Shown here: positions 12,001 through 15,000 of the stretch, one piece after another
Layout of the letters: each line of letters opens with the position of its first letter
Position numbering within the stretch: position 1 is the stretch's first letter
From: a virus
Taxonomy: Duplodnaviria > Heunggongvirae > Uroviricota > Caudoviricetes
Strand: one strand, 5' to 3'
IMG/VR virus record: IMGVR_UViG_2648501165_000020
Length of the DNA stretch: 22,254 bases
Position numbers: made by a program

Positions 12001-15000
12001 GGGGAGAGCATAAAAAAAGTACGACACAGTGTATCGGAAATGCTGAACGGAACGGTCAGCGCGAAACGCCTCGCAGAATGGATGGAAGGCAGAATGCCCT
12101 CCCGTTACGCGGATACCTGGCAACTGTTACGCACTCTGCCACCCTCACAGATGGACAGGGCTTCTGCTTATCGGGTGGTATCGGGTGTGTATCAGGCGGC
12201 AGGAGGGAAGCGTTACGATCCGCCACAGAAACTTTATTCACTGCGCAATAAGGACAATAAGGGGAGTAACCTCTTTTTCTCGGAAAGCAGGGATGAATTA
12301 CTGGCAAAGGCGAAAGTCTGGTTTGCAGAGCAGGAGGAAAAATCACAGGCGAAAGGTGATGAAAAAACAGCACCGTCACCGGATGACAAAATCCGCTTTG
12401 ACGTTTACCGGAATACCCGCAGTGGCGATATTTTTATCGCTTACGGTAAAAACAAAATGCGGGTGAGAGGTGGCTTTAAGTCAGCCAGTGATGCGCGTAA
12501 GTACATTGATTCACATCGTGATGAGCTTGTTCGTCATGTGAAGGAGATGCGGGAGATTTCGCGTGAGGAGCAGCGCAACGCCACCAACCGCGACCGTACC
12601 GGACCAGAACGCCGCAAGGGGAATGTTTCACCGGAGCAGTTCAGTGATGCGTTTGGTTTCCGTGGTGTGCAGTTTGGTAACTACGTGGAAGGTCCGCGTC
12701 GTCAGGCTGATTTGAACCGGGCTTATGACTCGCTGCATGACCTTGCGGAAGTACTGAATGTACCGACAAAAGCGCTTTCCCTGAACGGTCGTCTTGGCCT
12801 GGCATTTGGTGCCCGTGGTAAGGGTAAGGCGGCGGCACACTATGAGTCAGGTGAGGTGGCAATCAACCTGACAAAAGGTAACGGACCGGGTGCGCTGGCG
12901 CACGAATGGTTCCATTCTCTGGATAATTATTTTGGTCGTTATGACGTTTCCAATGACGGGAAAATTACGTCAGGTGGCGACTTTATGACGGAAGCACAGC
13001 GTGTCAGGCGCATATTTAAAGACGGCAGGTATGTTGATGCTGAATATCCGGTACGTCAGGAGGTTTACGACGCTTTTAAAGGTGTGATTCAGGCCATTAA
13101 AAACAGTGACATGCCGCGTCGTTCAGCGCTTCTCGATGAGGTGCGCTCAAAACCGTACTGGTCAACGGATGTTGAAATGGCGGCACGTGCCTTTGAGCGT
13201 TATGTTCAGGATAAGGCGCGTATGGCTGGCGTGGAGAATGATTATCTGGTCAATATCCGTAAGGCACCTGAGCACAACACAGATAACACCTACGCTTATC
13301 CGACGAATGCGGAACTGGATGGCGGTATTCGTGAGGCATTCGATCACCTGTTCCGCACCCTGAAAACCCGTGAGACGGACAAGGGCGTTGAGTTTTATTC
13401 CCGTAAGGGCGTTACCCGCACACCTGAAGGTAATCTCATTTCGGATGTTAACCGTAGTGCGGAAGCCAAAGGCAGCCCGGTCCCGCAGGTTGAAGCGGTT
13501 GCCCGTGGCGTGATGAGCGGCATTAAGGACAGTGACCTGAAGGTCCGTGTGGTGAAGTCACAGAAAGAGGCTGAAGCGCTGGCGGGTGAATTGTTCGATG
13601 GTTACGGCAGGGTGCACGCATTCTATCGTCCGGATAAACGAGAAATTGTCCTGGTGGCGGATAACATCCCTGACGGGCGGACCGTTCGCGAGAAGCTGCG
13701 TCACGAGATCATTCACCATGCCATGGAGCATGTTGTCACACCAGCGGAATATCAGACGATTATCAAAACCGTGCTGAAAACCCGCGACAGTGATAACGTC
13801 ACCATCCGTGAAGCCTGGCGTAAGGTTGATGCTTCCTATGGTAAGGAATCACCGGAAGTACAGGCGGGTGAATTTCTGGCACATATGGCGGAGAAACAGC
13901 CGAATAAATTCATGGCGGCATGGGAGCGTGTTGTTGCCCTGGTCAAAGGGGTACTGCGTCGTACGGGGTTACTGAAGCCGACGGAACTGAACGATATCAG
14001 ACTTGTTCGCGAGACCATCCGTACGTTAGGCCAGCGTGTGCGGGAAGGTTACACGCCGCGTGAGGATGGCGCGGGCGCATCGTCTCAGTACTCCCGTAGT
14101 GGTAAACGTGATCCGTTCAAAGTGCCGGAAGGTGAGGGCGAGCGTTATCGTGATGACCTTGCCAGAATGATGAAATCTCTGCGCACCACAGATTTAACGG
14201 TAAACATCGGGCGTACGCCGCCGGTATTGCGTCACCTTGGTGCACCGGATTTGCCGCTGGTTATTTCCCGCGATACTGTGCGGAAGGCCACCAATGGTGT
14301 GAAACATGTGGTGCCGATGGATGTTATCGAGAGACTACCGGAACTGATGCACGATCCGGATGCAATTTACCGCTCAGCGACAGAAAGAAATGCGGTTGTG
14401 ATGCTGCTTGATGCCGTGGATAAAAATGGTGATCCGGTGGTGTCAGCGGTACACATGAAGGCTGTCCGGTCGCGTCTGGAAATCAACAAGGTAGCTTCTG
14501 TTTACGGTACAGAAAATGGAAAAAAACTGAAAAGTATGGAAATGACCGGGTTAACGTTGTACCGGAGAGAAAAATTAAGCCGCGATAACCTTCTGCACAG
14601 AGGGCTCCAATTGCCCAAAGGGGAACATTCTTATCGCGGCTCTGCGGATAAAATACTCTATCCTGAAGATATTCGCAAGGGGCCGTATTACTCCCGTACC
14701 AGCAGTCTGACACCGGAAGAGACAATTGCATCGCGTTTTGTGCGCCAGATGCAGGATAAATTCCAGGTGCTGAAAGCTGTTCAGGAGAATATCCGTAAAA
14801 CTGGCGGCAAAGTGGACGACAGTAACAACGCTTATATGGCGGAAGAACTCTTCCACGGGAAGGCGGAAAACGACCTGAACGTGATGAAGGAGCGCTACGT
14901 TCAGCCACTGGCTAAATTACTGGCGGACTACAAAATTGCGCAGGCCGATCTGGATGAGTACCTCTACGCCCGTCACGCGCCGGAACGTAACGCGCATATC

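What the first reader, a model, noticed from the sequence alone, without database searches (positions are those of the whole stretch)
12901..13716. Two HExxH zinc-metallopeptidase-like motifs about 270 residues apart in the giant protein
HEWFH (12901-12915, context GALAHEWFHSLDNYFG with a Glu about 30 residues downstream) and HEIIHH (13702-13716, context REKLRHEIIHHAMEH) are candidate zincin-type metal sites. Zincin-like peptidase domains occur in anti-restriction and polyvalent proteins of phages and conjugative elements (ArdC-like, Wss1/SprT-like, ImmA/IrrE-like). HExxH also occurs by chance in long proteins, so this is a hypothesis only.
Basis: partly seen in the sequence, partly recalled or inferred. 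Interest (0 to 1): 0.7.

Follow-up and report, generated by a model that had tools for sequence, protein, structure and literature searches.

The report
Two zinc-protease domains in Stx-phage giant protein
Both HExxH motifs are very probably the active sites of two different zinc-protease domains inside the giant, essential, virion-packaged protein of Shiga-toxin phages; this kind of domain is already known from computational work, so the result is a sound annotation rather than a surprise.

Summary
The window comes from a short-tailed Shiga-toxin phage of the VT2-Sakai/933W type. The giant ORF (9013-17433, 2806 aa) corresponds to Sp5 ORF80 and phi24B gp47, an essential protein found in the virion. 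It has exactly two HExxH motifs, at the stated coordinates. Composition predicts 0.04, and P(two or more) is about 0.001.

His Glu 30 residues downstream is not the ligand, and neither module belongs to the ArdC, SprT or ImmA families. The substrate is unknown.

The parts
9013..17433 (+). Giant polyvalent virion protein gene (2806-aa ORF; probable true start ATG 9052 = M14, giving 2793 aa). It corresponds to VT2-Sakai orf71, Sp5 ORF80 (ECs1242), 933W L0134 and phi24B vb_24B_48 (called gp47 in the preprint).
   Evidence: ORF list and translation. The 2-kb stretch tested (12400-14400) is 99.8% identical to Stx phages. Annotation. PHROG 616 aligns aa 14-2806 to its positions 1-2793. 97% identical to the phi24B protein. 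A terminator-like hairpin at 9015-9034 and a GGAG before ATG 9052 favour the shorter form.
12202..12651 (+). Pfam LPD5 (aa 1064-1213). In the model this is the N-terminal sub-domain that precedes the zincin core of module 1.
   Evidence: Pfam E = 6.5e-45. The model shows a helix, three strands and further helices.
12595..13362 (+). Module 1: CLCA_X-type zincin metallopeptidase domain (aa 1195-1450). N-terminal helix 1227-1248; strands 1262-1265, 1275-1278 and 1283-1286; HExxH helix 1295-1312; variable insert; Glu helix 1386-1404.
12838..12846 (+). H1276-Y-E1278 in strand 2 of module 1 (motif AAHYE). This is the conserved His in strand 2 that Iyer et al. describe for one phage-type clade.
   Evidence: H1276 in 147 of 148 and E1278 in 145 of 148 homologues. 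Strand assignment. Clade description in PMC5512222.
12901..12924 (+). Motif 1: H1297-E1298-W-F-H1301-S-L-D1304 (HExxHxxD). Predicted zinc ligands, general base and a conserved Asp.
   Evidence: H1297 and H1301 in 148 of 148, E1298 in 147 of 148, D1304 in 144 of 148. Invariant in alignment A1.
13132..13371 (+). Pfam LPD1 (aa 1374-1453). In the model it holds the Glu helix and the C-terminal helix of the module 1 zincin fold, so it is not an independent domain here.
   Evidence: Pfam E = 9.9e-24. Model helices 327-345 and 373-390 correspond to aa 1386-1404 and 1432-1449.
13174..13197 (+). E1388-M-A-A-R1392-A-F-E1395, the Glu helix of module 1. It holds the candidate third zinc ligand, E1388 or E1395.
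   Evidence: E1388, A1391, R1392 and E1395 in 148 of 148; Y1382 in 145 of 148.
13465..13962 (+). Module 2: second zincin-like domain (aa about 1485-1650), absent from every family library searched. Helix 1490-1501; strands 1510-1514, 1536-1539 and 1544-1548; HExx(x)H helix 1555-1574; Glu helix 1614-1627.
13702..13719 (+). Motif 2: H1564-E1565-I-I-H1568-H1569. The family consensus is HExxxH[H/Y/K/G]G, and the Stx-phage copy is one residue shorter.
   Evidence: H1564 in 58 of 60 and E1565 in 60 of 60. The second His is invariant in the MAFFT alignment. Motif contexts.
13870..13893 (+). E1620-F-L-A1623-H-M-A-E1627, the Glu helix of module 2. E1620 is the candidate third ligand.
   Evidence: E1620 in 59 of 60, A1623 in 56 of 60, E1627 in 50 of 60. 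E1620 is invariant in A2. It lies in model helix 150-163.
14299..14568 (+). MuF_C domain (aa 1763-1852). Iyer et al. classify it as a PBECR, a predicted RNase fold. It is not a metallopeptidase.
   Evidence: Pfam E = 1.4e-17. Definition in PMC5512222.
16477..17094 (+). [quoted passage not shown]
   Evidence: Pfam E = 7.8e-48. PMC5512222.

Best explanation
The two motifs are the active sites of two different zincin-fold zinc metallopeptidase domains. They lie next to each other in the middle of the giant polyvalent protein of Stx phages, which is packaged in the virion. Module 1 (aa about 1195-1450) is a CLCA_X-type gluzincin. H1297 and H1301 bind zinc, E1298 is the general base, and E1388 or E1395 on a later helix is the third ligand. 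H1276 and D1304 line the pocket. Module 2 (aa about 1485-1650) is a smaller zincin. Its predicted ligands are H1564, H1568 or H1569, and E1620, with E1565 as the base. Shown here: the motifs are non-random and conserved, both domains are predicted to have the zincin fold, and they occur in tandem across the family. Taken from the literature: the protein is essential and is present in the virion. Inferred: both domains are active endopeptidases that act on proteins once the giant protein is released during infection. They may cut the polyvalent protein into working pieces, cleave host proteins, or both. Module 1 also occurs as a free-standing protein of about 335 aa with nothing attached for it to release, so at least that module probably acts on other proteins.
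Against: Nobody has measured metal binding or proteolysis for any member of either family. I could not inspect model coordinates, so the ligand geometry and the choice between E1388 and E1395, or H1568 and H1569, remain untested. For module 2, Foldseek against the PDB found nothing significant, and profile searches of PDB sequences found nothing for either module. The module 1 to module 2 profile match has only 8% probability. The CLCA_X score (148 bits) is below NCBI's naming cut-off of 260. In phi24B virions, gp47 spectral counts peak in the first-listed gel slices. I infer these are the high-mass slices, so most of the protein is not visibly cut into small pieces before infection. The known Sp5 deletion phenotype is loss of tail-fibre labelling, which does not by itself require protease activity.
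Confidence: 0.75

Rival explanations
1. The peptidase domains cut the peptide cross-links of peptidoglycan so that the ejected protein can build a channel across the periplasm. The phi24B preprint proposes this role for a metallopeptidase in gp47.
For: gp47 is a virion protein proposed to be an ejection protein. Short-tailed phages must cross the cell wall. Iyer 2017 notes that some polyvalent proteins carry wall-degrading domains.
Against: The preprint assigns the peptidase label to MuF-C, which Iyer 2017 defines as an RNase-like PBECR domain. The best structural matches of both modules are protein or peptide endopeptidases: lethal factor, MtfA, PPEP, M13, M32 and SprT. From my own knowledge, wall-degrading metallopeptidases are usually of the LAS (M15/M23) type, and none appears among those matches. 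The free-standing module 1 genes lie among accessory genes, not with structural or lysis genes.
Confidence: 0.1
2. One or both domains are catalytically silent zincin-like scaffolds. The giant protein would be essential for structural reasons only, such as tail or ejection-channel assembly.
For: The Sp5 ORF80 deletion gives DNA-filled heads that are not labelled by tail-fibre antibody, which is an assembly phenotype. gp47 appears mostly as large species in virions. Two of 60 module 2 copies have Glu in place of the first His.
Against: Near-total conservation of every catalytic residue across homologues down to 20-30% identity is what selection on catalysis produces. Pseudo-enzymes normally lose these residues.
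Confidence: 0.08
3. Module 2 uses the zincin fold for a different reaction, for example RNA cleavage as in YbeY, and is not a peptidase.
Against: Most of the hits, and the strongest ones, are peptidases. From my own knowledge, YbeY uses a three-His HxxxHxxxxxH site, not HExx(x)H with a distant Glu. The general-base Glu is invariant.
Confidence: 0.05
4. The motifs are chance HExxH occurrences in a long protein.
For: No result here supports it.
Against: 0.037 motifs expected and P(two or more) = 0.001. Both are conserved in hundreds of distant homologues and lie in a zincin-type structural context.
Confidence: 0.01

Closest known systems
CLCA_X family of predicted zincin metalloproteases (Lenart et al. 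2013, PMC3650047; NCBIfam NF041907)
   Same: Module 1 matches the NCBIfam model over 243 of 250 positions at E = 2e-43. It has the HExxH-plus-Asp signature and occurs in phages, prophages and plasmids, often in very long proteins. The paper's own alignment and table list the 2806-aa Stx-phage protein at residues 1195-1467.
   Different: The score is below NCBI's curated naming cut-off (148 against 260 bits). The paper writes the motif as HExxHxxxD, whereas this protein and its homologues have HExxHxxD. The paper did not note the conserved E1388/E1395 helix or the second module. Nothing about the family has been tested experimentally.
Zincin-like MPTase domains of polyvalent proteins (Iyer, Burroughs, Anand, de Souza, Aravind 2017, PMC5512222)
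   Same: The setting is the same: a giant, virion-delivered, multi-domain protein with LPD domains and MuF-C. The paper describes one phage-type clade with a His at the end of strand 2 and an Asp three residues after HExxH, which fits module 1. It describes another clade with HExxxH, which fits the consensus of the module 2 family. It also reports proteins with several MPTase copies.
   Different: I could not open the paper's alignments, which are on an FTP site, so I cannot confirm that this protein or module 2 is in them. The Stx-phage copy of module 2 reads HExxHH, not HExxxH. In Pfam the parts flanking module 1 are filed as separate domains (LPD5, LPD1), and the catalytic core is not annotated at all.
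MtfA (M90), anthrax lethal factor (M34) and Pro-Pro endopeptidases PPEP-2/3
   Different: Sequence identity is 11-14%, and profile searches detect no relationship. The Tyr-to-Glu spacing is 6 here, against 7 in those enzymes as I recall. The biological settings differ.
Minigluzincins, SprT/Spartan, Wss1, IrrE/ImmA and ArdC C-terminal domain
   Different: No sequence-level match to any of their family models. Foldseek found nothing significant. Module 2 has extra helices between the HExx(x)H helix and the Glu helix.
P1 DdrB and N4 virion RNA polymerase MPTase regions
   Same: Both are virion-packaged phage proteins with a predicted zincin domain. DdrB is proteolytically processed before packaging, and N4 vRNAP is packaged uncut.
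   Different: Profile comparison of either module with P1 DdrB found nothing. N4 gp50 was not tested.

Membership tests
Zincin (HExxH) metallopeptidase superfamily, module 1 | HExxH on an alpha-helix, conserved across the family | tested here: met
   H1297 and H1301 in 148 of 148 and E1298 in 147 of 148. The motif lies in model helix 236-253.
Zincin (HExxH) metallopeptidase superfamily, module 1 | Core of an N-terminal helix, a three-stranded sheet, the HExxH helix and a second helix carrying the third ligand (Glu) | tested here: met
   Model elements H168-189, E203-206, E216-219, E224-227, H236-253 and H327-345. E1388 and E1395 are invariant on the last helix.
Zincin (HExxH) metallopeptidase superfamily, module 1 | Fold similarity to solved zincins | tested here: met
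Zincin (HExxH) metallopeptidase superfamily, modules 1 and 2 | Zinc binding with correct ligand geometry, and peptide-bond hydrolysis | not testable with these tools
Zincin (HExxH) metallopeptidase superfamily, module 2 | Conserved HExxH or HExxxH on a helix after a three-stranded sheet, plus a conserved Glu on a later helix | tested here: met
   H1564 in 58 of 60, E1565 in 60 of 60, second His invariant, E1620 in 59 of 60. Model elements H26-37, E46-50, E72-75, E80-84, H91-110 and H150-163.
Zincin (HExxH) metallopeptidase superfamily, module 2 | Fold similarity to solved zincins | tested here: inconclusive
CLCA_X (NCBIfam NF041907; Lenart 2013), module 1 | Significant full-length match to the family model | tested here: inconclusive
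   E = 2.2e-43, 148.5 bits, profile positions 3-245 of 250. This is below the curated cut-off of 260 bits.
CLCA_X (NCBIfam NF041907; Lenart 2013), module 1 | Inclusion in the family as defined by its authors, with the HExxH-plus-Asp motif | tested here: met
   gi|315274348 (phage VT2phi_272), residues 1195-1467 of 2806, is in the paper's Figure S4 and Table S2, with 100% hits to Stx2 converting phage I. Motif 1 is HEWFHSLD.
Iyer 2017 phage-type MPTase clade with strand-2 His and Asp at +3, module 1 | Conserved His at the end of strand 2, and Asp three residues after HExxH | tested here: met
   H1276 lies in model strand 216-219 and is kept in 147 of 148. D1304 is H1301 + 3 and is kept in 144 of 148.
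Iyer 2017 HExxxH MPTase clade, module 2 | Active-site motif HExxxH | tested here: inconclusive
   Most homologues have HExxxH[H/Y/K/G]G. The window copy and its close relatives have HExxHH, and some distant homologues have plain HExxH.
   No peptidase family matched the whole protein at E of 1 or better. Scans of the 31 and 26 aligned homologues gave only sub-threshold noise: Peptidase_M76 at E of 0.058 or worse, DUF5700, Peptidase_M91.
Polyvalent proteins of phages (Iyer 2017) | Large multi-domain protein, encoded with virion genes, combining unrelated enzymatic and LPD domains, and delivered with the DNA | tested here: met
   LPD5, LPD1, MuF_C and LPD38 plus two zincin modules. The gene follows the tail-fibre genes in the late region. 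Presence in the virion is shown for the 97%-identical phi24B protein. Delivery into the cell has not been shown.

The most novel reading that the evidence does not exclude
Module 2 may be a distinct zincin family that no database has catalogued: it has no Pfam, NCBIfam or PDB-sequence match. Evolution appears to have kept it directly downstream of the CLCA_X protease in many giant phage ejection proteins. The two proteases could then have separate tasks, for example one cutting the polyvalent protein after ejection and the other destroying a host defence or envelope protein. The essential role of the giant protein in Stx-phage infectivity would then depend on this proteolysis, which would make zinc-protease inhibitors a way to block the spread of Stx phages.
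Probability: 0.15. Interest if true: 0.6.

Novelty: new member of a known kind. Interest (0 to 1): 0.3.

Why it matters
The giant protein is one of nine genes of previously unknown function found essential for producing infectious Stx2 phage (PMC5155283). It is abundant in the virion, yet its function is unknown. Public annotations say only 'hypothetical protein' or 'LPD5 domain-containing protein'. The one recent structural preprint places the metallopeptidase in the wrong domain (MuF-C). Locating two intact zinc-protease sites gives concrete point mutants to test: E1298A and E1565A, which are E1285A and E1552A in 2793-aa numbering. These mutants can show whether proteolysis is needed for tail assembly, for ejection or for take-over of the host. 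The analysis also shows that Pfam LPD1, and the end of LPD5, are pieces of a single protease fold whose catalytic core Pfam leaves unannotated. The representatives search returned about 5,800 clusters matching the two-module query, so this gap may affect the annotation of thousands of proteins. The kind of domain is not new. It was predicted computationally in 2013 and 2017.

Tried and rejected
- Searches of PDB sequences with the single sequence and with profiles of both modules gave no meaningful hit.
- Pfam scans of the whole protein and of every member of both alignments gave no peptidase family above noise.
- PHROGs gave only families of unknown function, plus a DarB-like hit in the C-terminal part.
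- hhalign of module 1 against module 2 lines up the correct strand-strand-HExxH region, but at only 8% probability. A common origin within this protein is therefore not shown.
- hhalign of either module against P1 DdrB found nothing. A single-sequence target makes this a weak test.
- Word-indexed homologue searches for module 2 returned only short fragments of close relatives. No free-standing module 2 protein was found, and that tool returned no protein longer than about 450 aa.
- A Kyte-Doolittle scan found no strongly hydrophobic segment of 19 residues, so a membrane-spanning role got no support.
- The AAA+ (COG1483) domain reported for Sp5 ORF80 was not reproduced by Pfam or NCBIfam.

Full report
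**What the window is.** A 2-kb stretch around the finding is 99.8% identical to many short-tailed Shiga-toxin phages, including VT2-Sakai, 933W and Stx1/Stx2-converting phages (genus Traversvirus). The finding lies in a single ORF, 9013-17433 on the + strand, of 2806 aa. This ORF is orf71 of the VT2-Sakai record and L0134 of 933W. It is 97% identical to vb_24B_48 of phage phi24B. It follows tail-fibre genes and a Lom homologue at the end of the late region.

A terminator-like hairpin at 9015-9034 lies inside the first 13 codons. A GGAG precedes the second ATG at 9052. PHROG 616 aligns from residue 14. The true product is therefore probably the 2793-aa protein of the literature. I use 2806-aa numbering throughout; subtract 13 to convert.

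**The observation.** A regex scan finds exactly two HExxH motifs:
- HEWFH at aa 1297-1301, nt 12901-12915.
- HEIIH at aa 1564-1568, nt 13702-13716, followed by a further His at 1569.

The protein has only 38 His. Composition predicts 0.037 motifs, and 20,000 shuffles give P(two or more) = 0.001.

**Domain context.** Pfam finds four domains:

| Domain | Residues |
|---|---|
| LPD5 | 1064-1213 |
| LPD1 | 1374-1453 |
| MuF_C | 1763-1852 |
| LPD38 | 2489-2694 |

These mark the 'polyvalent proteins' of Iyer et al. 2017 (PMC5512222). No Pfam peptidase model matches, even at E of 1 or better. Motif 1 lies in the unannotated gap between LPD5 and LPD1. Motif 2 lies in the gap between LPD1 and MuF_C.

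**Module 1.**
- *Homologues.* A full HMMER search with aa 1215-1720 against representatives of 15 billion proteins found 5,810 clusters at E of 0.001 or better. Most of the 150 best listed are proteins of 1,000-5,800 aa. A word-indexed search also found many free-standing proteins of about 335 aa with the layout LPD5, gap, LPD1.
- *Conservation.* In an alignment of 31 such sequences at 28-66% identity, H1297, E1298, H1301 and D1304 are invariant. So are the motifs AFGxRG and INLT, E1278 of the AAHYE motif (H1276 is nearly invariant), and a downstream Y...ExxARxFE. Across 152 domain hits in the large representatives the counts, out of 148 non-gap positions, are:

| Residue | Kept |
|---|---|
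| H1297 | 148 |
| H1301 | 148 |
| E1388 | 148 |
| E1395 | 148 |
| E1298 | 147 |
| H1276 | 147 |
| D1304 | 144 |

- *Model.* An AlphaFold model of aa 1060-1460 has pLDDT 84.6 and pTM 0.79. It shows the classic zincin core: helix 1227-1248; strands 1262-1265, 1275-1278 and 1283-1286; the HExxH helix 1295-1312; an insert; and the Glu helix 1386-1404.
- *Consequence for Pfam.* LPD1 holds the Glu helix of this protease. LPD1 and the C-terminal end of LPD5 are parts of one fold whose catalytic core Pfam leaves blank.

**Module 1 is already in the literature.** NCBIfam NF041907 'CLCA_X family protein' matches aa 1195-1450 at E = 2.2e-43 over 243 of 250 model positions. The score is below NCBI's naming cut-off (148 against 260 bits). 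CLCA_X was defined by Lenart et al. 2013 (PMC3650047) as a predicted zincin protease family of phages, prophages and plasmids, with an HExxH-plus-Asp motif and many very long members. The paper's supplementary alignment and table list 'gi|315274348 Enterobacteria phage VT2phi_272, residues 1195-1467 of 2806', with 100% hits to Stx2 converting phage I. Iyer et al. 2017 also describe a widespread phage-type clade with a conserved His at the end of strand 2 and an Asp three residues after HExxH. That is exactly H1276 and D1304.

**Module 2.**
- *Homologues and motif.* phmmer with aa 1461-1720 finds this region in 56 of the 149 large homologues returned by the representatives search. The conserved pattern is L-x-H-E-x-x-x-H-[H/Y/K/G]-G. 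The Stx-phage clade is one residue shorter (HEIIHH), so it reads as HExxH by way of H1568 or as HExxxH by way of H1569.
- *Conservation.* E1565 is kept in 60 of 60, H1564 in 58 of 60 (two copies have Glu), the second His is invariant, and E1620 is kept in 59 of 60.
- *Tandem arrangement.* Of 146 homologues, 126 have a further HExxH or HExxxH downstream of motif 1. For 83 of them it lies 200-300 residues away, after the same strand motif (hYLVAxNh). The tandem is therefore a family feature.
- *Model.* The AlphaFold model has pLDDT 79.9, with the core at 84-96. It again shows a helix, three strands, the motif helix and a later helix carrying E1620.
- *Negative results.* Foldseek found nothing significant. 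Profile searches of PDB sequences, Pfam and NCBIfam found nothing. hhalign places module 2 on module 1 at the strand-strand-HExxH region, but at only 8% probability.
- *Assessment.* I accept module 2 as a zincin with somewhat lower confidence than module 1. It fits the HEXXXH clade mentioned by Iyer et al., but I could not check their alignments.

**Biology from the literature.**
- Deleting Sp5 ORF80, the 2,793-aa protein, abolishes plaque formation and lysogenisation. DNA is still packaged and heads look normal, but tail-fibre antibody no longer binds (PMC5155283).
- The phi24B preprint (10.64898/2026.04.10.717836) finds gp47 abundant in virions by mass spectrometry but invisible in the cryo-EM map, and proposes that it is an ejection protein.
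- That preprint names 'a Muf-C metallopeptidase domain' and suggests that it degrades peptidoglycan. By Iyer et al.'s definition MuF-C is a PBECR, a predicted RNase fold. The actual metallopeptidase modules were therefore not recognised.
- In the preprint's supplementary table, gp47 spectral counts are highest in the first four gel slices (2188, 1686, 1187, 1260) and then tail off. The 45-kDa capsid protein peaks at slice 11 and the 35-kDa gp84 fragment at slice 14. I infer that the slices run from high to low mass, so gp47 is packaged mostly as a very large species.

**Mechanism.**
- *Shown:* two conserved, non-random motifs in two predicted zincin folds, in tandem, in a virion protein.
- *Inferred:* both are active zinc endopeptidases, because every catalytic residue has survived divergence down to 20-30% identity.
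- *When they act:* Iyer et al. proposed that such domains cut polyvalent proteins into functional pieces, or attack host proteins, after delivery. Because gp47 appears largely uncut in the virion, I favour action during or after ejection.
- *Action on other proteins:* free-standing LPD5-zincin-LPD1 proteins have nothing to release from themselves. Their genes lie among small accessory genes, next to Amidoligase_2, GATase_6 and GGACT genes in one phage lineage, and not in structural modules. This argues that module 1, at least, can act on other proteins.
- *Rivals:* the peptidoglycan idea is less likely because every close structural match is a protein or peptide endopeptidase. A purely structural, inactive role is unlikely given the conservation.
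- *Open points:* the substrate, the timing, and the identity of the third ligand (E1388 or E1395; H1568 or H1569).

**Verdict.** Module 1 is already published as a predicted protease of this very protein family. Module 2 is an uncatalogued member of a known kind. Interest is modest. The value lies in correct annotation of an essential Stx-phage protein and in clear point mutants to test.

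Noticed in passing
window 9013-9054: A terminator-like hairpin (GCCCGGC...GCCGGGT followed by a T-run, 9015-9034) lies inside the first 13 codons of the 2806-aa ORF. A GGAG sits 6 nt before the second ATG at 9052. The real start is probably M14, giving 2793 aa as in Sp5 ORF80 and PHROG 616. The VT2-Sakai and phi24B records annotate the longer form.
   Followed up: partly
window 12652-13131 (aa 1214-1373): The catalytic sheet and HExxH helix of module 1 fall in a gap between Pfam LPD5 and LPD1, and LPD1 holds the Glu helix. The two 'domains of unknown function' are therefore parts of a single protease fold. 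All 31 aligned homologues hit LPD1, 25 hit LPD5, and none hits a peptidase family.
   Followed up: yes
window 14299-14568 (MuF_C, aa 1763-1852): The phi24B cryo-EM preprint calls this a 'Muf-C metallopeptidase domain'. Iyer et al. 2017 define MuF-C as a PBECR, a predicted RNase fold. I did not check whether this copy keeps the RNase catalytic residues.
   Followed up: partly
L002 and L003, 5569-9008 (metagenome phage contigs): A free-standing LPD5-zincin-LPD1 gene (335 aa) lies directly downstream of Amidoligase_2, GATase_6 and GGACT/AIG2 genes and about 1.9 kb upstream of the small terminase gene. In another lineage (L004) it sits among small ORFs close to the terminase genes, which lie on the opposite strand. 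This may be a functional link between the protease and a peptide-ligase system.
   Followed up: no
window 18596-18770 (-): Rfam finds a full-length sok antitoxin RNA (RF01794, 112 bits). It overlaps the position, about 18448-18660 on the - strand, where the VT2-Sakai record annotates a gef/hok homologue. This is a hok/sok-type toxin-antitoxin locus just downstream of the giant gene.
   Followed up: no
window 21075-21163 (-): Rfam match to sRNA-Xcc1 (RF02221, 69 bits, full length), immediately upstream of the AntA/P22 antirepressor-like gene at 20405-21034 (-).
   Followed up: no
proteins P0153 and P0244 (module 2 homologues): Two of 60 module 2 copies have Glu in place of the first His (REEILVHKG, QEELLIHKG). 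These could be inactive copies or copies with an altered metal site.
   Followed up: no
window 9013-12200 (aa 1-1060): The N-terminal third has Ala/Gly-rich stretches (aa 100-460) and a Pro/Gln/Glu/Arg-rich low-complexity region (aa 440-900). It has no Pfam domain and no strongly hydrophobic 19-residue segment. The AAA+ (COG1483) domain reported for Sp5 ORF80 was not reproduced by Pfam or NCBIfam.
   Followed up: partly
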